DNA from: Octopus vulgaris
Taxonomy: Eukaryota
Assembly (NCBI GenBank): GCA_951406725.2
Contig: OX597818.1
Coordinates: forward strand, 125,922,001-125,986,000
Length of the DNA stretch: 64,000 bases
Direction of reading: 5' to 3'
Position numbers and translations under genes: made by a program. How positions within the stretch are numbered: position 1 is the stretch's first letter; the number at the start of each line of letters is the position of its first letter. Below are positions 880 through 56,694 of this stretch, one piece after another. The notes beneath the pieces are model-generated. The model saw nothing but the letters and a program-made list of their open reading frames with translations. It ran no database searches and was not told the DNA's origin.

Positions 880-2074
880 CAAATCGACGCTACGATCGTT
901 TCCGTAAACGAACGATTTTTTAAAAATCTCATATCTCTTACAATGTTATGTAATACCATCAATATATAGAAATATGCAATAATATTTTTTATTGTTAGAT
1001 CACTTCTTCAGGCATCTTCATTTGAAAAACATGATCAAGGAAAGAAACAAAAAAGAAAAACAAGGAGAGAGATAATAAGGGAAAGTATACCAGTTAGTGG
1101 TCAGTCAAGATAATTTGAAAGTAGAAATCGGGAGATGAGGGTGATAAAGAAAGGTATCAGAGTGTAAAAAGATAGAAGGAATACCGGTCTGATAGAGAGA
1201 GGGGTATAAAAATGTAGTTTTCTTTGCATTGTGGGCATGTGATGCTGTAGATATTTGTGTAGAGACTAGTTACGTCAAAGCTTACTAGTACTGTCTCTTT
1301 ATCTGCCTGTTCTGGGATAGGATTTAAGAAGTCCATGTCATCTCTGATGAAACTGGGAACTAATCTACATAAAGGTTTTTCAAATTATGTCCAACAAGTT
1401 GCTTATTCTTTGGGTGCTGGATGCTGGTCCTGCAACAATCAGATGCAATTTGAGATCAGTTGGTTAGGGAATCTTTATATATGGAGTATGGAGATCTTTT
1501 AAGTTGTTGCTGATCTGTTTGGATTTATGGATTTCAGGAAGGCCATAAAAATTACTTGTTTCCACTTCAAAATGGTTAGGTAATTCAATTCCTTTTTAGT
1601 TAACTCATCCTTGAATTTGTTGATAAATTTGCCAGTTTTGCTCCTAGTTCGATTATCAGCATTGCTATCTAATCTTCTGTAGAATTGCTGGTCACTGAAT
1701 TGTTCTAAGACCATTTCCCTGTAATGGGTCTTCTCCATTATTACAATGGCTCCTCCTTTGTCAGCTTCTTTAATGATTATAGATGAATCTTGAAGACATT
1801 CTAATGATTTTTTCCCCTCATCTGTAATATTTTGTTTTACAGGGTTTGTTGGAATGTTTGAATTAGCAGACCTTTTCAGGTATATTATATATTCCACCAG
1901 GTGTTTGTTTCTATTTATCGGAGGTTTAAAATCTGTTTTATTCTGCAAAAACGGTGGATCATCGTTGCCATTGTTAGGAAAGAACTCCCGTGGGCGAAGT
2001 CTTCTGTAGAATTCTTCAGTATCTGTTATAAAGTCTGTTGTGCTGGATTTAGGAGTTGGTGTGAATTTTAGACC

Positions 2075-6250: not shown

Positions 6251-6311
6251 TACATTATTTATATATGTGTGTGTGTGTGTGTAGTTGTTGAAGTGGTGTA
6301 CAGATATTGTA

Positions 6312-6469
6312 TATTAAGAAGAACGTGGCAGTCAGAATTTTGGACAATCTCTTATTAGCGCTTTCGTCCGGACAATCGAACTTTTCAAGATAGTTTGAAG
6401 AGTTGGCTGAACGAACGAAAGCGCTAATAATTATTCAAAATTCTGACTGTCCCCTTCTTCTTCTTAATA
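6312..6469. mobile_element. Fold-back element with two divergent degenerate HHRs
   Basis: Arm pairs TATTAAGAAGAA/TTCTTCTTAATA, CAGTCAGAATTTTG/CAAAATTCTGACTG, TTATTAGCGCTTTCGT/ACGAAAGCGCTAATAA. Cores TTGAAGA (plus) and TTGAAAA (minus), each followed by GAAAGCGCTA. Confidence 0.75.
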
Positions 6470-6480
6470 CATATATATGT

Positions 6481-6570
<90 letters not shown>

Positions 6571-13756: not shown

Positions 13757-16728
13757 GATTGATTGATTGATTGATTGATTCCAGTTCCAGCCTGTGAGCT
13801 GTGGCCATGCTGGGGCACCGCCATTTGGTGTTGCTACTTGGTTTTACTTCATGGGGGCTTTCTAGCAACTGCTATTTGGTGCATGAGAGAGTTCGATGCA
13901 GCTGCCCTCATCTGCCCCTCCTGCCGTGAAGTTGGTTCATCTGGGACACCAGACAGGAAGAGATCCAGCTTCATTTTAAAGACTTCTGTATCCACCCCAT
14001 GCAGGTCTCTCAGGTTCTTCGGGAGGATATTGAAGAGCTGTGGGCCTCGGAAGCCCAGGCTATCACAGAATCTTGTCCTACATCTTGATGGCAGGTTTGG
14101 AGTCCTAGGCACCACGCAGTGGCGCCCAGTTCTGGCATTTGTGTAACTCTCGATGCCAAAGTTCAGGACACTTCCCTCCAGGATCTTCCAGATGTATATT
14201 ATGGCATATCTTTCCCGCCTACGCTCCAGGGAGTATAATTTTAATCTCTTGAGTCTTTCCCAGTAGCTTACATTCTGCATAGAGGCTATCTTCTTTGTGT
14301 AGCTTCGTTGGATCGCCTCAAGTTCTGTGATCAACTTGACACTGGATGGTGACCATAGCTGAGAGCAATAGTCAAAGTGGCTTAGGACAAGTGTCTTCCA
14401 GAGGACCATCATGGTTTCTTGTTCTCTTGTTCTAAAGGTTCTAAGAATCCAGCCAGCCAGCCGTCTACATTTCACTGTCAGTTTAGCAACATGTACATGA
14501 AAGGTCGCGTCATCACTCATGTGAATACCCAGGTCACGCACTGATTGTGCCTCTGGGATTGCAATCCCTCCGGGTCCAGTGTATTCATTGGGTATTGCAT
14601 TCAGTTTTGCATGCTGATAGTATAAAGCTTGAAACTTTCCAGCATTGAACTGCATGCTATTCTTTTCAGCCCACTTGTATATTTCGTCCAGCTCACATTG
14701 CAGGTTTTTAGTGTCCTCAGGGTTCTGTATTGCCTGTGAAACTTTTGTATCATCTGCATAACTTGTGATCGTGGATCTCTGCGTGGCTGAGGGCATGTCT
14801 GAGAGGGCCATTATGAACAGTAGTGGTCCCAAAACAGTGCCCTGTGGAACACCACTCATTATTTGCGTGTTAATGGAAGTGGCCCCATTGGCTACTACCA
14901 CCTGACTTCTATTCTTCAGAAAGTCGTGAAGCCATTCTCCTAGTTTTCCAACTATGCCAAGATCACGCAACCTGTGACATATCATTCCGTGATCGACTTT
15001 ATCGAAGGCCTTTGCGAAGTCGAGATATATGACTTCCACATTTGAGTGGTTGAGCAGTTGTTTCAGCACCCAGTCATAGTGCTGCAGGAGCTGAGTTAAG
15101 CAGCTTCTTCCTGGTCGGAAACCATGTTGGGTGTCAGGCAGCAAGTCATTTTCTTCAAGGAAGGTGATTAGTTTCCTTCTGACTATTCGTTCCATGACCT
15201 TGCTGATGTGTGAGGTCAGAGAGATAGGTCTGTAGTTCTTTGCCTCCGCTCTGCTACCTCCTTTATGAATAGGGCATATTTTACCTTCCTTCAGTCCCCT
15301 TGGAAGTTTGCCAGCTGCAAGGAAGCTCTGAAAGAGGGACTGCAGTGGTCTTGCTAAGACTCTCTTACATACTTTTAGGAGGATTGCCGGGAATCCATCG
15401 GGGCCAGTAGCTGAGTCTATTTTCATTTCATCTATAGCCTTTATTACATCGTCTTCCTTTATCTCGATGTAACTTATCGTCGCCGCCTCTGATTCTATAT
15501 CTGCAGTGGTAAAGAAGTCAGTTGGATTGCTGATTTGGAAATGCCCAAGGGGTGGAGTGAAAACACTCTTGAATTGTTCATTCAGTATTTCACTTACCCT
15601 CATTGGTTTTCCTGTGAGTGTGCCATCCTTTTCAAGGAGTGGCCCTATCCTACAGTGCACTGTAGCCGTTTCTTTGGCATACCTGTAGAAAGCTCTGGGG
15701 TTAGTTTTTATGTTGTCTATAGCCCAGGCTTCTTTGTCTGCTCTTTCCTTCTCATGGGAAAGTTGCAGACAATTTTCAATTTCCAACAGTTTTATTTTCA
15801 GGCGGGACTTTTCACTACTTTCAATTTGTTTGTTTAGGCGATTTGAAATTTTTGTACGCCGTCTCATTAAAATTTTCCTCTCTCTGGGGATTTTGTTCTT
15901 GTGTACAGTGGCCTTTCTCTCTGGGACACATTTGTAGCATATGGCTTGCATTACAGACATGAATTGTTGAAGTATCATGTCGATGTCCGGCGAGGAGAGA
16001 CATTCAGGCCAGTTTTGTTTGAGGATCTCTTTCTCAATTTGTTTCCAGTTTGCCTTATTGAAGTTCAAGCTGGAAAGATTCTGAGGGTTTCTTGTAGGCT
16101 GCATGTCCGTGCTCTCTTTTGGCCCGTACATGGTCAGCTCTACCATGTTGTGATCCGAGAGTAGTGTCGGTGTCACTTTCACATTATGGATGAGATCCAT
16201 ATTATTTGTGAAGCAGAGATCCAGTGTGTTACCTGCTCTGGTTGGTTGCAGTATTACTTGCTCCATGTACAGGGTGTTGGTGAGGTTCAGGAGGGACCTC
16301 GCCTGTCCACGTTCACATCTTGTCATTCCTGGGAGAGAAAGGCCCTCGGGCCATCTGACATTCGGTAGATTGAAGTCTCCCATGAGAAGTACACTTATGT
16401 GTTGTTCTAATGTGGTTAGAACTTCTTCTATTTTTAAAAGGCAGTCCTCGAACTTGCCCATATGACTTGGGGCATCTGGAGGGCGATATGTAGCACACAC
16501 AACTACATAAAGTTGCCTTATGTGTACAATTAGTGTGTCACACACCGAGTTTGAGTATGACAAAAGGACCTGGGGTGTGAGGTCCCCACGGATGTACATA
16601 GCAACTCCTCCATGACTCCTTTCTTTCCTGTCGGTCCGTAGTACAACATACTGTGGTATGTGTAATTCCGCATCTGCTATGTCCGGTTTCAGATGCGTTT
16701 CTGTGAGTGCTATGCATAAGGCTTGATT
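13757..16728 (-). mobile_element. CR1-group LINE, 5'-truncated, young, embedded in (TA)n
   Basis: Intact ORF2 frame, short 3' UTR, (ATCA)n tail at 13757-13780, TA tracts on both sides. Confidence 0.95.
13849..16728 (-). CDS. LINE ORF2: APE endonuclease plus reverse transcriptase (no native start; frame stays open upstream of the ATG at 16599)
   Basis: EN motifs [31 protein letters not shown] motifs [41 protein letters not shown]-terminal LYSLERRR. Confidence 0.95.
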
Positions 16729-16749
16729 GCATGTATATATGTATATATG

Positions 16750-16781
<32 letters not shown>

Positions 16782-16809
16782 AATATATATATGTATATAT
16801 ATGTATATA

Positions 16810-16887
<78 letters not shown>

Positions 16888-16899
16888 AATTAAAAGAAT

Positions 16900-17340
16900 G
16901 AGACAAAAAATCCGAGGCTGTGAATAGTTTTCAGAACATTTATAAAGAGAAAGTCTTACAGATGTTTCCGGGATATTTTATATATCCCTTCATCAAAGGC
17001 GGTGCGAGAAAATGTTTAAGTAATAGTTATTATAGAGAAGATATGAAATACAGAGTGAAGTGGAGGAATGAAAACAGACGTGAGATACGTAAGGATATTG
17101 TATTAGCAGTTTTATTATTTAAGCAGAATGGTGAATATATAATTTTCCTGTACCTTGTGTGTAAGTTCCAAACTTATACATACACCATTCTGCTTAAATA
17201 ATGGAACCTCAAATACAATATCCTTATGTGCCTCACATCTATTTTTTTTCCTCCACTTCACTCTGTATTTCATGTCTTCTCTATAATAACTATTAAACAT
17301 TTTCTCGCACCGTCTCTGAAGAAGGGATATATAAAAAATA
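16900..17340. mobile_element. Fold-back element (~370 bp palindrome) with divergent HHRs
   Basis: 16973-17135 is the reverse complement of ~17178-17338; complete HHR on the left arm, truncated HHR (GTCT-CTGAAGA-AGGGATAT) at 17312-17335. Confidence 0.9.
16953..17000 (-). ncRNA. Minimal type I hammerhead (C3-to-U decayed copy)
   Basis: GCCT-TTGATGA-A-GGGATAT-ATAAA-ATATCCC-G-GAAAC-ATCT-GTA-AGAC. Confidence 0.75.
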
Positions 17341-18215: not shown

Positions 18216-18883
18216 AAGAAAGAGAGATACACACATATATGCATATACGCTTACGTGCATGCATTTATACATACATAGAAATATGTACATGTGAACTTTG
18301 TGATTCCGCACATTTTTGTCTACCTAATTCACTCGCAATACACAATTATATTTTTATTCTTTTATCCTCTCATGCTTTACTATTCGGTCGTCGACGACTT
18401 TACCTTTTATTTTTTCAGATTCGATAAAATAAGAAACATTTTAGCACTGAGGTCGATGTAATCGATTTACCAGTCACCTAAAACTGCTGGCCTTGTGCCA
18501 AACTTTGAAATCATTCTTTCATCCGTCATCATCTCCAGAATAATGCCGTGATGCTGGAGTAAAGCCGATGCAATTGGTAATTATTTTAGGACAACTGTTT
18601 TTGTAGTTAATTTGTTGAATAAACGTCTTTGATGCTGCTTTCCTCAGTTAACGTTTTCACCGCCACAGTGAAACATCTGCATCGCATATCGTAGGGTATC
18701 CAGTCTTTTTTTGAATACATATATATATATATGTGTGTGTGTAAAATTAATAGAGGTCGCAAATGTGACAGAGGGTACTGACTTAGCAACTCTTTTGCTA
18801 AAAATGAGAGTTAAAACAACTCCAACGCCACAAAGCACTGAACTTAATGACTGACAAAGTGACGTTAATTCCCTACGTACATG

Positions 18884-18937
18884 GTCGGATCGTGATTTCG
18901 GATTTTGATGCAAACTATCTAAATCCTCATCAGCGAC
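18884..18937 (-). ncRNA. Minimal type I hammerhead, intact core
   Basis: GTCG-CTGATGA-GGATTT..AAATCC-GAAAT-CACG-ATC-CGAC. Confidence 0.85.
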
Positions 18938-19353
18938 TCTTTATACCTAAGATTAAACTCAACTACCGCTGTCAGTCTTATAAAGAAAACCGTTGAAAAC
19001 GTGTGCTGACTTTCAGAACGGTAAACGTGTAAACAACAAATTAAAAATGGTGGCTTATTAGCAATTAGAACCTAAAAGCAATATTAATAGAGGTCACACA
19101 AATGATGGAAGGTACTGACTAGCAAATCTTTTGCTAAAAATAAGAGTTAAAACACCTCCAAACCACAAAAGCAGTGAACTCAGAGGTGCTAGTCTGTGCC
19201 CACTGTTACTTTCCTGGCCTCTGTTAATATTGCTTTTAGGTTCTAATTGCTAATAAGCCAACTTTTTAATTTTTTGTTTACACTTTTACCGTTTTGAAAA
19301 TCAGCATATGTTTTCAACGGTAGAGATAGTTGTGTTTTACCGTAGGCGTTAAA

Positions 19354-19402
19354 AGTCACTGATGAGGATTAAGATGGTAAAATCCGAAGACGCGATCCGA
19401 CT
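19354..19402 (+). ncRNA. Minimal type I hammerhead, decayed
   Basis: AGTCA-CTGATGA-GGATT..AATCC-GAAG-ACGCG-ATC-CGACT. Confidence 0.7.
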
Positions 19403-19588
19403 ACGTACGCTAGGGGTGTTACTTACCTTTGACAGTCATTAAGTTCATTACTTTTGTGGATCTGCAGTTGCTTTAACACTTATTTTTAGCAAAACGAGGT
19501 GGTGGTCGGTACCCACTGTCACTTTTGTTACAACTACTAATTTTCCCTGTAGATTCTAATTGCTAATAATCCACCCATTTCATATATA

Positions 19589-51330: not shown

Positions 51331-51808
51331 TACGTAAATGTATACCTGGAAGAATGTTCCCTATACACAATTTAAACTTATTCTCAGTGTATATACGATA
51401 ACATCACTTTGTTTATCAATGTTTAAAAGCTTTCAGCCCAGTATAGACAGAGTGATCTCCCTAACAACAGAATGTCTTTTTGTTATTTCACGAACAAAAA
51501 TATTCCAAACGTCACGTCTATTTTGTAAATGTTGTTTCCTAAAATTAACACTGTTATCACAAGATTGTATATATGCATGTACGTGTGCGTATACACGCGT
51601 GTGTACGCGTGTGTATATATGTGTATATGTGTATATGTATACATATATGTATATATATATATATATATTAAAAGGGAAAATATATATATATATGTTTATA
51701 TATATATACTAAAAGGGAGATCTCAGTAAAAACACAGCACTTGAAAGGCAAACACAGACAGGTAAGAAAGAATGAGATGACGGCAATCTATCATACAATT
51801 TTAAGTTA

Positions 51809-51899
51809 CCTACGGACGTACGTTTCGAAATCAAGTTTTAGGAAACATAAAAATTAGAAAATTCTACCTTACCCAAACTTCTTTTCTCGTCGGCGTAGG
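51809..51899 (-). ncRNA. Type I hammerhead with CCGACGA core variant
   Basis: CCTACG-CCGACGA-GAAA..TTTC-GAAAC-GTAC-GTC-CGTAGG. Confidence 0.8.
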
Positions 51900-51983
51900 A
51901 TACTACAATTATGAATAATTGTATATTAAATTTTGAGATACTATCTCAAAATTTAATATACAATTATTCATAATTGAAGTTAT

Positions 51984-52072
51984 CCTACGCCGACGAGAAA
52001 AGAAGTTTGTAAGGTAGAATTTTCTAATTATGCTTTCCTAAAACTTGATTTCGAAACGTAGCCGTCCGTAGG
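51984..52072 (+). ncRNA. Type I hammerhead with CCGACGA core variant
   Basis: CCTACG-CCGACGA-GAAA..TTTC-GAAAC-GTAGCC-GTC-CGTAGG. Confidence 0.8.
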
Positions 52073-52132
52073 TAACTTAAAATTGTATGATATATATATA
52101 TATATATATATTTCACCCTTTATTGTTACTGA

Positions 52133-53874: not shown

Positions 53875-53962
53875 TTTCCCTGATGAGAAGATTGCATTGT
53901 TTTACACCATTTTATTCCTTCTGGAATAATACCAATATATTTTTCGAAACATATGTCGGAAA
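53875..53962 (+). ncRNA. Type I hammerhead, intact core
   Basis: TTTCC-CTGATGA-GAAGAT..ATTTTTC-GAAAC-ATAT-GTC-GGAAA; preceded by a pyrimidine-rich tract, followed by AATAAA and (TA)n. Confidence 0.88.
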
Positions 53963-54507: not shown

Positions 54508-54575
<68 letters not shown>

Positions 54576-54579
<4 letters not shown>

Positions 54580-55320
54580 GATATAGGATAAAATTTTTTT
54601 CGGGAAAAAAATTTTATCAATGGCCAACATATAAAAAAATGCCTTTAAGCTAAGATTTATACATAATTTACAAGATAAGGGCAGAAGAAAAAATTCTAAT
54701 GCCAAATATGCCGAAACAAAAAATTGTTGGTAACCATTATAATTTAGGCGTCTCGAAGCAAACCGATAGAAATTTCTAAAAAATTCGTTATTACCGTATT
54801 GGTCCAATTTCGGGGTTAATTCATAAGAAATTTTCCCCTCTTCAGCGGCAAATACGCGAGACATAAATGAAATACTTACTCATACCCATGGAAAAAGCAA
54901 GCACTAAGTCCTGAGCAGACTTAAGTACCCCAATTATATCCAAAATAGAAAAATCATCGGCGCACCTCGAGACACGTGCGATTCGAACTAGAAACTTTCA
55001 CAGAGTGATAGAATCCGGAAGTGAATACTAATCTATTTATAATTGATATAGGATAAAATTTTTTTCGGGGAAAAAACGAATTTTTTAGAGATTTCTATCG
55101 GCTTGCTTCGAGACGCATAAATTATAATGGTTATCAACAATTTTTTGTTTCGGCATATTTGGCATTAGAATTTTTCTTCTGCCCTTATCTTGTAAATTAT
55201 GTATAAATTTTACCTTGAAAGGCATTTTTTGATATGCTGGCCATTGACAAAATTTATTTCGGGAAAATTTTTTATCCTATATCAATTATAAATAGATTAG
55301 TGTTTACTTCCGGATTCTAT
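54576..55320. mobile_element. Retrozyme-like element: 465 nt terminally redundant monomer (-) plus inverted partial copy (+)
   Basis: AATTGATATAGGATAAAATTTTTT at 54576 and 55041; 55075-55320 is the reverse complement of 54576-54790 continuing into 55009-55040. Confidence 0.9.
54791..54851 (-). ncRNA. Type I hammerhead, intact core
   Basis: TTGCCG-CTGAAGA-GGGG..CCCC-GAAA-TTGG-A-CCAAT-A-CGGTAA. Confidence 0.9.
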
Positions 55321-55528
55321 GAGACAAGAACGCAAAACACTCAAATAGACGACACAAAAAAACGGACGGGTCATTCGAAGCCTCTAATCTTCAGTCAAGA
55401 ACCGAATCATCCTCGCAATTTCGGCTGATTAATCTTGAGATCGCTCCGATCCGGCCAGCCCCAAGGAAAAACTAAGCAACGAGCATTAGATTTCTTGGAA
55501 AAAAGGATCGAATATATACGAAACAAGG

Positions 55529-55531
<3 letters not shown>
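55321..55531 (-). mobile_element. Unclassified (TA)n-adjacent element; internal 60 bp recurs at 55909-55968
   Basis: CATTCG(A/G)AGCCTCTAATCTTCAGTCAAGAACCG occurs twice. Confidence 0.6.
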
Positions 55532-55599
<68 letters not shown>

Positions 55600-56694
55600 G
55601 TTTCTTTCAGAATCATTAAATCGTTGGATAAATTGTTTGTAGCATTTGTTCGAGTTATCAACGTTCTTAGATGAAATCTTGCCGAGGTTAATTTGAGATT
55701 TCATCCTTCCGCCGATAAAATAAAGTACCAGTCAAATACAAGATTGATAAAATCAACTACTCCCCTTCGCCACCGTTTCTACCTGTGAACCTCTATTATA
55801 AATAGTTATAATTGTTGGAGCATTGAATAAATGACTTGCGGTATGACGTTCTGAGTTCAAATCTGAGGCCAAATCTGTATTTCTATAGGGTCGTTCAAGT
55901 AAACTAACACATTCGGAGCCTCTAATCTTCAGTCAAGAACCGGATCATCCTCGCAATTGTCGGCTGATAAAAGTGCTGCCCGGCGGGAATGTCCACAATG
56001 TGTGCAAAGCGACGAAACCCTACTACACGCACTTATGCATTATCCGTACATTTGCTAACTTGTGTAGTTATGTCTTACCATTATTATCGCTTGTTGGTCA
56101 AACTTAGCAATCAGTTAATTCCATCGTATGGATCGCACCACCGTCTGCCTTTCGCAAGGCGGAGTAGGCAATGTTCTTCTGTCTAGTGTCTACGGCGAGA
56201 GAGATTGTGTATTGGTCGGGGATGAAAGAATTTGAACAAATGATTTTCTTTTCGGTTAAGCGCACTTAGATATTTTCCTGTCCCACTTTGAACGGAAAAT
56301 GCGGGAGATGAAGGAATTGCTCTCCCCCAATGATTAAATGTGACTGGAACTACCGTAAGCATGTACCAATAGACGGGATATCAAATGCTGGACGATATTT
56401 TTGCGCCCTTGGTAGTCAGTGTGATCCATGGGTTGTGGGATTCTTCGAGTGATTGTGGTTGAAGACTCTTCTTTGACATCCAATTATTGCCATACTTCGT
56501 GTAATATCTATACCTTTTAGCTAATCTCTCCCCTCAACGCATCGCTCGTCCCAGAATTCGAAACCACAATCTCACGATCATGTTTCTAATACCCTAACCA
56601 TTAAGCCATGTACCTGCCTTCACACATACACGTGTGTGTATGTATGTATGTATGTATGTATGTATGTATGTATGTATGTATGTATGTATGCATG

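What the first reader, a model, noticed from the sequence alone, without database searches (positions are those of the whole stretch)
54576..55320. 465 nt monomer with intact HHR; inverted arm begins just past the cleavage site
Seen: the minus-strand unit has ~30 nt terminal redundancy. The plus-sense arm starts at AACGAATTTTT, about 7 nt after the predicted cut (AUA/CGGTAATAACGAATT), and runs across the monomer junction into ATAGATTAG..CCGGATTCTAT. Inference: that arm was copied from an RNA whose 5' end was made by self-cleavage, and the unit is circularly continuous.
Basis: partly seen in the sequence, partly recalled or inferred. Interest (0 to 1): 0.78.

Follow-up and report, generated by a model that had tools for sequence, protein, structure and literature searches.

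The report
Hammerhead retrozyme with Penelope-type inverted insertion
This is one copy of an abundant, non-coding 465-base jumping element with a self-cutting RNA motif, inserted into an (AT) microsatellite of an animal genome in the head-to-head layout already known for Penelope-like retroelements; one arm may stop at the ribozyme cut, but the few other copies seen do not show that as a rule.

Summary
A 465-nt non-coding unit (minus strand, 54573-55076, 39-nt redundancy) carries an intact type I hammerhead. A 92%-identical inverted arm (55069/55077-55320) starts 2-10 nt after the cut and runs 30 nt past the unit junction. Contigs from two organisms show a high-copy family ending on (TA)n, with the head-to-tail junction present as DNA. 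Partial tandem, inverted 5'-truncated copy, one-sided 30-40 nt tail and (TA)n target are the published signature of Penelope-like element (PLE) insertions; short non-coding hammerhead units are known as non-LTR retrozymes. The long arm crosses the cut and exceeds unit length, so its template was a circle or an uncleaved tandem; these cannot be told apart here. That self-cleavage made the short arm's end is possible for this copy (an 8-nt overlap reaches to 1 nt from the cut) but is not general in the small sample: 1 of 12 other inversion breakpoints lies within 12 nt of the cut (0.4 expected), and three other inverted hammerhead loci in the window cross their cuts. No circular RNA was shown. 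Verdict: new member of a known kind, with one testable lead on what PLE hammerheads do.

The parts
54513..54576 (.). (TA)n microsatellite, the target on which the long arm's 3' end lands
   Evidence: sequence; 21, 31 and 3 contigs in runs X2, X4, X8 have loose (TA)n-type letters before 54584 (table 7)
54573..55037 (-). one full 465-nt non-coding unit; folds better than shuffles (z -5.3 linear, -4.9 as a circle)
55038..55076 (-). 39-nt 3' end of the preceding unit (partial tandem, a pseudo-LTR equivalent), broken off inside the unit's terminal 14-bp hairpin
   Evidence: 38 of 39 identical to 54573-54611; helix 54618/54587
54791..54851 (-). type I hammerhead ribozyme, intact core, cut between 54797 and 54796
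55069..55076 (.). inversion centre: 8-nt imperfect overlap shared by both arms (7 of 8 and 6 of 8), reaching to 1 nt from the cut
55077..55290 (+). inverted, 5'-truncated second copy (unit 3' part, no hammerhead core), 92% identical to the long arm
55291..55320 (+). 30-nt 'tail': first 30 nt of the next unit, on this end only
   Evidence: 28 of 30 identical to 55037-55008
55321..55535 (.). right flank, not similar to the unit, ending in another (TA)n; read as pre-existing target-side DNA (inference)
   Evidence: no match to the unit; 62 nt shared with 55910-55971

Best explanation
A non-autonomous, hammerhead-bearing 465-nt retroelement (non-LTR retrozyme or mini-PLE) mobilised in trans by a Penelope-like RT and GIY-YIG endonuclease. 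Shown: the anatomy, a high-copy family in two organisms, a recurrent 3' end on (TA)n, a head-to-tail junction in DNA, inverted joints in other copies. Inferred: the PLE enzyme nicks both strands at an AT-rich site and primes two cDNAs internally on the element RNA, one at the unit junction (long arm, 504 nt, through the uncut or religated hammerhead and over the junction) and one 30 nt further on (short arm with tail, about 250 nt). The two cDNA 3' ends join head-to-head through an 8-nt imperfect microhomology. Both arms came from one source lineage in one event and then decayed separately. The hammerhead probably cuts multimeric transcripts to unit length, which may circularise, as shown for other animal retrozymes; not shown here.
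For: Every layout feature matches the PLE description in PMC8557442 (passages): partial tandem, inverted 5'-truncated copy, 30-40 bp tail at one end, (TA)n as preferred target. PMC11167929 (main text, parts 1-2 of 4) shows that a PLE protein nicks and extends both strands at AT-rich DNA and starts RT internally at two sites that bound the tail. Family data (4 of 24 listed runs laid): 3591 and 3196 contigs in two DNA? runs of organisms A and B; depth in all 30 bins; diverged contigs overlap from 54591 to 55039; 4 of 15 shown joints go back from the unit start to its end; 6 of 15 switch strand. The arms share two minority letters (54728, 54758), and at five near-fixed family positions only the long arm differs. 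A different family at 18743-19580 has the same layout with a unit of about 337 nt and a one-sided tail. A PLE-like RT fragment with GLKF and DKG motifs lies at 1502-2050 minus (motifs named). The longest frame in the unit has no Pfam match, and single-base indels are common in the family (table 4).
Against: The autonomous partner was not identified; the RT fragment has no Pfam match and only DUF8422 look-alikes in the Atlas. No genome was available, so tandem arrays with two or more hammerheads were not seen. Family variants do not favour the predicted fold: 16 keep and 11 break a pair, 11 are unpaired (38 of 40 shown rows, 105 in all), against 58% of transitions expected to keep a pair by chance. 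The isolated hammerhead does not beat shuffles (z -0.6) and its lowest-energy fold mispairs the core; the active fold costs 1.0 kcal/mol inside the unit. The tool does not give the polarity of the strand-switch joints; head-to-head is assumed. No target-site duplication can be read in a microsatellite.
Confidence: 0.78

Rival explanations
1. First reader's mechanism as a sub-step (compatible with the best explanation): the short arm ended here because RT ran off the 5'-OH end of a hammerhead-cleaved linear monomer, while the long arm was copied from the circular form, possibly the same molecule before it was cut.
For: The arm can be extended at 6 of 8 letters to 1 nt from the cut, and the long arm's one mismatch is the short arm's letter. 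A cut-to-cut monomer holds exactly what the short arm needs (cut, junction, tail). The arms share two minority letters. In 6 of 6 other inversions one breakpoint lies 3' of the cut, and in 5 of 6 the other lies beyond it.
Against: Only 1 of 12 other breakpoints is within 12 nt of the cut (0.39 expected), and 6 of 6 has P=0.13 under a uniform model. Eight sites in the unit match the centre octamer at 6 of 8 or better, so microhomology alone can place the joint. The arms of loci 6296-6484, 18743-19580 and 51709-52085 run through their cuts. For the anole PLE, hammerhead mutants did not change insertion in vitro and no reads began or ended at the cut (PMC11167929). One copy picked after the fact is weak evidence.
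Confidence: 0.3
2. The unit is the terminal repeat (pLTR), or a gutted deletion product, of an abundant autonomous PLE and not a self-standing short element.
For: PLE pLTRs carry type I hammerheads, and opposite-strand pairs 100-700 bp apart are described as probably truncated PLEs (PMC4209133). Retrozymes and pLTRs are related in Xenopus (bioRxiv 10.64898/2026.07.22.740005). 388 loose ends were not shown, so an upstream reading frame could be hidden there.
Against: Upstream of the unit lies its own 3' end, here and in contigs of both organisms (tables 5 and 5c). Diverged contigs bridge the inside of the unit from 54591 to 55039, so no rare deletion joint is apparent (table 8). None of the 24 shown loose ends reads as a common upstream continuation. 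The hammerhead has canonical helix sizes and no extra base before helix II, unlike the PLE minimal type.
Confidence: 0.15
3. A MITE-like or fold-back DNA element, or an assembly artefact beside a microsatellite.
For: Long inverted arms between (TA)n tracts.
Against: The arms differ at 17 of 218 columns, are unequal in length and meet at variable internal points in other copies. An intact hammerhead and a head-to-tail junction are not DNA-transposon traits. The family is present in contigs of independent runs.
Confidence: 0.03

Closest known systems
Metazoan non-LTR retrozymes (Cervera and de la Pena 2020, PMC7229834, parts 2-4 of 6 read; Li et al. 2026, bioRxiv 10.64898/2026.07.22.740005, parts 1-3 of 5 read)
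   Same: Short, non-coding, low-GC, highly self-paired unit with one canonical type I hammerhead; head-to-tail continuity; high copy number; PLEs proposed as helpers.
   Different: 465 nt is longer than the ~170-400 nt RNAs of the 2020 paper but inside the 51-972 bp range of the 2026 preprint. This copy is 1.08 units with one hammerhead plus an inverted arm and tail, not a tandem array. Circular RNA and self-cleavage untested.
Endonuclease-bearing Penelope-like elements: insertion layout (Craig et al. 2021, PMC8557442, passages read) and mechanism (Frangieh et al. 2024, PMC11167929, parts 1-2 of 4 read)
   Same: Partial tandem, inverted 5'-truncated copy at the 5' end, 30-40 nt tail on one end, (TA)n or AT-rich target, type I hammerhead.
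   Different: No RT/GIY-YIG reading frame: the repeating unit itself is only 465 nt. The hammerhead is canonical in helix sizes, not the minimal PLE type of PMC4209133 (parts 1-2 of 4 read).
Non-autonomous Chlamys PLEs such as MRC1 (passage in PMC8557442)
   Same: Non-coding elements that form pLTRs and head-to-tail insertions.
   Different: Green-algal; most Chlamys lack canonical hammerheads.

Membership tests
Type I hammerhead ribozyme | CUGANGA...GAAA...UH core with helices I-III, helix I open | tested here: met
   6/4/3+1 bp helices, no core change; 3 hits in the window against 0 in 200 shuffles
Type I hammerhead ribozyme | Rfam hammerhead model score | tested here: not met
   no Rfam match at gathering score or at E<=5; the long helix II may explain this (inference)
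Type I hammerhead ribozyme | self-cleavage; loop 1-loop 2 contact | not testable with these tools
   needs an in vitro assay; the helix III region is a near-palindrome that can self-dimerise at -8.9 kcal/mol
Metazoan non-LTR retrozyme | short non-coding low-GC unit with a type I hammerhead | tested here: met
   465 nt; longest frame without Pfam match; frequent single-base indels in the family
Metazoan non-LTR retrozyme | head-to-tail continuity and many genomic copies | tested here: met
   junction twice in this locus; go-back joints and more than 3000 contigs in each of two DNA? runs
Metazoan non-LTR retrozyme | tandem array with at least two complete hammerheads (the 'active' definition of the 2026 preprint) | tested here: inconclusive
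   not met at this locus (one hammerhead); for the family the contigs are too short and no genome is held
Metazoan non-LTR retrozyme | highly self-paired unit RNA | tested here: met
   z -5.3 linear, -4.9 circular; but no sign of selection on the fold in 38 variants
Metazoan non-LTR retrozyme | expressed as linear and circular monomers | not testable with these tools
   no listed run is on record as RNA and all are contigs
PLE-type insertion | partial tandem plus inverted 5'-truncated copy | tested here: met
   six strand-switch joints in other copies, polarity not given
PLE-type insertion | 30-40 bp tail on one end | tested here: met
   30 nt at 55291-55320 only
PLE-type insertion | (TA)n or AT-rich target | tested here: met
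   this locus and 21, 31 and 3 contigs with (TA)n-type letters at the same end
Autonomous PLE | RT plus GIY-YIG reading frame between pLTRs | tested here: not met
   no such frame in or next to the unit

The most novel reading that the evidence does not exclude
The locus is a fossil of both RNA forms of a retrozyme used in one insertion: the long arm by rolling reverse transcription round a 465-nt circle, the short arm by run-off at the ribozyme-made 5' end, perhaps of the same molecule after it was cut. If short arms across this very abundant family pile up at, and never pass, the cut, this would be genomic evidence that hammerhead cleavage acts in PLE-driven insertion in vivo. PMC8557442 calls that role still unclear, and in vitro work on the anole PLE found cleavage dispensable.
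Probability: 0.2. Interest if true: 0.62.

Novelty: new member of a known kind. Interest (0 to 1): 0.3.

Why it matters
The kind of element and the layout are known, so the locus alone is ordinary. It links two literatures in one place: a retrozyme-sized unit carrying the full PLE insertion signature (inverted arm, tail, (TA)n target) is structural support that retrozymes are moved by PLE enzymes, which the papers read argue from shared ribozymes, co-occurrence and pLTR similarity. The family is very abundant and the window holds several unrelated hammerhead families with the same layout, so this genome would allow a count of truncation points against the cut, a cheap test of what PLE hammerheads do. 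I found no description of this family or of such a count in eight answered library searches. The library lacks most subscription papers and Repbase/Dfam, and the supplement of PMC7229834 could not be read.

Tried and rejected
No genome is held for this window, so no genome-wide copy survey was possible. Rfam found no hammerhead. Exact-pattern scans of metagenome contigs and viral contigs gave 0 matches. Run search: 24 rows listed, 20 hold part of the unit, in 11 studies and five organism labels, none with half of the words; no RNA holder listed, which says nothing about expression. Two runs guessed to be RNA were laid (X8, X13): 151 and 31 contigs, one junction-crossing contig in X8 (depth 15, 19 letters on the short side), none listed in X13, and several ends on (TA)n as in genomic copies. 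Contigs cannot show RNA ends, level or circularity, so this is not used for or against a circle; 'places where many molecules begin or end' was empty for the same reason. Summed depth (about 10^4 to 6x10^5 per bin against 30-90 for single long contigs) was not turned into a copy number. Selection on the fold: not supported (rows 54949 and 54996 of the 40 shown were left out because they were absent or nearly so in the two DNA? runs). A coding role for the 100-codon open frame through the hammerhead was rejected: no Pfam match, indels in the second arm and in the family. The tail does not form a notable hairpin on its own (-2.5 kcal/mol). The CTGAAGA in the right flank (55321-55535) is not a hammerhead. 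Earlier-findings look-ups by sequence, by place and by one word set were empty. The first, whole-window repeat search was swamped by microsatellites. Two octopus/cephalopod repeat papers (PMC13282606, PMC8967140; term passages only) do not mention ribozymes in the main text; the one supplement listed for PMC13282606 was not opened.

Full report
Setting. The window is AT-rich (29-45% GC per 2-kb bin), full of (TA)n and (CA)n tracts, with an APE-RT LINE frame: an animal genome. The repeat content reminds me of octopus; this is recall and comes from no call. No whole genome is held.

Observation. Between a (TA)n tract ending at 54576 and position 55320 lie two arms. The long arm is on the minus strand: 55076 to 54573, 504 nt, one 465-nt unit preceded by the last 39 nt of another (38 of 39 identical). 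The short arm is on the plus strand from the inversion centre to 55320: the 3' part of the unit (17 differences in 218 columns) and then 30 nt across the junction (28 of 30 identical). The arms are head-to-head and both 3' ends point outwards. The unit has a complete type I hammerhead with the cut between 54797 and 54796. The motif scan gives 3 hits in the window and none in 200 local shuffles; Rfam does not list it. The unit folds far better than shuffles in the sense direction (-124.9 kcal/mol, z -5.3; as a circle -118.3, z -4.9 on 40 shuffles, the antisense circle -79.6). The hammerhead alone does not (z -0.6), and its active fold is 1.0 kcal/mol above the best fold of the 504-nt arm.

The inversion centre. 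The short arm is unambiguous from 55077, which is +10 after the cut. The eight letters 55069-55076 match the long arm at 7 of 8 and the short arm at 6 of 8, back to +2, and the long arm's one mismatch is the letter the short arm would give. The same overlap offers a plain alternative: a joint chosen by microhomology. Eight sites in the unit match this octamer at 6 of 8 or better, two of them the long arm's own site.

The family. Of 24 runs listed, 20 hold part of the unit, under five organism labels and 11 studies; none is on record as RNA. I laid four. Two DNA? runs of organisms A and B gave 3591 and 3196 contigs with depth in all 30 bins. Among 24 loose ends shown (388 not shown), 21, 31 and 3 contigs in three runs end on (TA)n-type letters at the same end as the long arm. 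Among 15 joints shown (4 not shown), four go back from the unit's start to its end, in both organisms and in one RNA? contig, so the head-to-tail junction exists as DNA in other copies. Six joints switch strand, each in one contig: 54639/54757, 54687/54847, 54722/54868, 54735/54883, 54746/54942, 54785/54912. Their polarity is not given; I assume head-to-head. Diverged contigs overlap from 54591 to 55039, so the unit is collinear across copies and not a rare deletion product. Of 13 variant rows checked in the stretch covered by both arms, the arms share two minority letters (54728, 54758), and at five near-fixed positions only the long arm departs from the family. This fits one insertion from one source lineage followed by separate decay (inference).

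None of the 12 breakpoints is within 10 nt after the cut, one is within 12 (0.39 expected, P=0.33), and five lie beyond the cut. In all six pairs one breakpoint stays 3' of the cut, which would fit a ceiling set by cleavage, but P=0.13 under a uniform model. The window gives further controls. Of seven BLAST rows for local inverted repeats (two of them this locus; one search lists two more short ones), three other loci carry hammerhead cores called by script: 51709-52085 (both arms, one core change), 18743-19580 (both arms, one with a core change) and 6296-6484 (one arm called). In these the inverted match runs through the cut. The 18.7-19.6 kb locus repeats the whole layout with a different sequence: a unit of about 337 nt, partial tandems on both arms, and a tail of about 35-40 nt on one. 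Starting at the cut is therefore not part of the layout in general.

What is known. PMC8557442 (passages) describes PLE insertions as partial tandems, often with an inverted 5'-truncated copy at the 5' end, a 30-40 bp tail at one end, (TA)n as preferred target, and hammerheads in the pLTRs whose function is still unclear. PMC11167929 (parts 1-2 of 4) shows a PLE protein nicking and extending both strands at AT-rich DNA, RT starting internally at two sites that bound the tail, no effect of hammerhead mutants on insertion, and no RNA reads ending at the cut. PMC4209133 (parts 1-2 of 4) notes opposite-strand hammerhead pairs 100-700 bp apart and proposes circular templates for more-than-unit copying. 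PMC7229834 (parts 2-4 of 6) defines animal non-LTR retrozymes and shows circles in coral, mussel and axolotl; its supplement could not be read. The 2026 preprint (parts 1-3 of 5) argues that retrozymes are non-autonomous PLE derivatives and found strong cleavage in one of nine dimers tested.

Mechanism. Most likely a PLE enzyme acting in trans nicked both strands at the edge of the (TA)n tract and primed two cDNAs inside the element RNA, at the junction and 30 nt beyond it. The long cDNA passed the hammerhead and the junction, which a cut-to-cut linear monomer cannot template; it needs a circle or an uncleaved tandem transcript, and I cannot tell which. The short cDNA stopped at or just before the cut, by run-off from a cleaved RNA (about 0.3) or by ordinary truncation and microhomology. 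The two ends were then joined. Shown: anatomy, family, recurrent 3' end, junction, inversions. Inferred: helper enzyme, double priming, template form. A candidate class of helper is present as a broken PLE-like RT fragment at 1502-2050 (GLKF and DKG motifs; no Pfam match; DUF8422 look-alikes with a low recognition score); no link to this family is shown.

Against my reading. Variants give no sign of selection on the predicted fold (16 keep, 11 break, 11 unpaired). No array with two hammerheads, no helper, no RNA and no cleavage were shown. Hidden loose ends could hold a link to a reading frame, so a pLTR origin keeps about 0.15.

Verdict. A real feature and a new member of a known kind: a retrozyme-sized non-autonomous element with a textbook PLE insertion. 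Interest 0.3. The open lead, that short arms end at the ribozyme cut, has probability about 0.2 and would deserve about 0.6.

Noticed in passing
window 18743-19580: Unrelated hammerhead family with the same layout: head-to-head arms about 70% identical, unit about 337 nt, hammerheads at 18933-18888 (-) and 19359-19397 (+, one core change), tail of about 35-40 nt on the plus arm, ends on microsatellites.
   Followed up: partly
window 51709-52085: Near-perfect head-to-head inversion (93%) between (TA)n tracts; both arms carry a hammerhead with the same core change (CCGACGA) and a long helix II; the left arm runs about 80 nt further. The shared change may be a family variant of the core.
   Followed up: partly
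window 6296-6484: Short inversion (76%) with a decayed minimal hammerhead and palindromic GCGC loop III, ending on (TA)n on the right.
   Followed up: partly
window 16973-17339: Inverted repeat (83%) beside a LINE; hammerhead-like core letters seen by eye but not called by the relaxed scan.
   Followed up: no
window 53880-53957 (+): Intact type I hammerhead with a long helix II region, ending about 40 nt later on a (TA)n tract, 600 nt from the studied locus; no similarity to the 465-nt unit.
   Followed up: partly
window 1502-2050 (-): Broken PLE-like RT N-terminal fragment (GLKF and DKG motifs), frameshifted downstream, starting at a microsatellite.
   Followed up: partly
window 13852-16977 (-): Long open frame with AP endonuclease and RT domains (Pfam PF14529, PF03372, PF00078): a possibly young LINE copy.
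   Followed up: no
window 55372-55432 and 55910-55971: 62-nt direct match (94%); the second copy runs into a frame with a CxxC...H motif that recalls the zinc-binding end of L1/Tx1 LINEs (the label is recalled, not tested).
   Followed up: no
strand-switch joints: The two breakpoints of each of the six inversions are 118-196 nt apart, never close together; this may be a detection bias or a feature of the mechanism.
   Followed up: no
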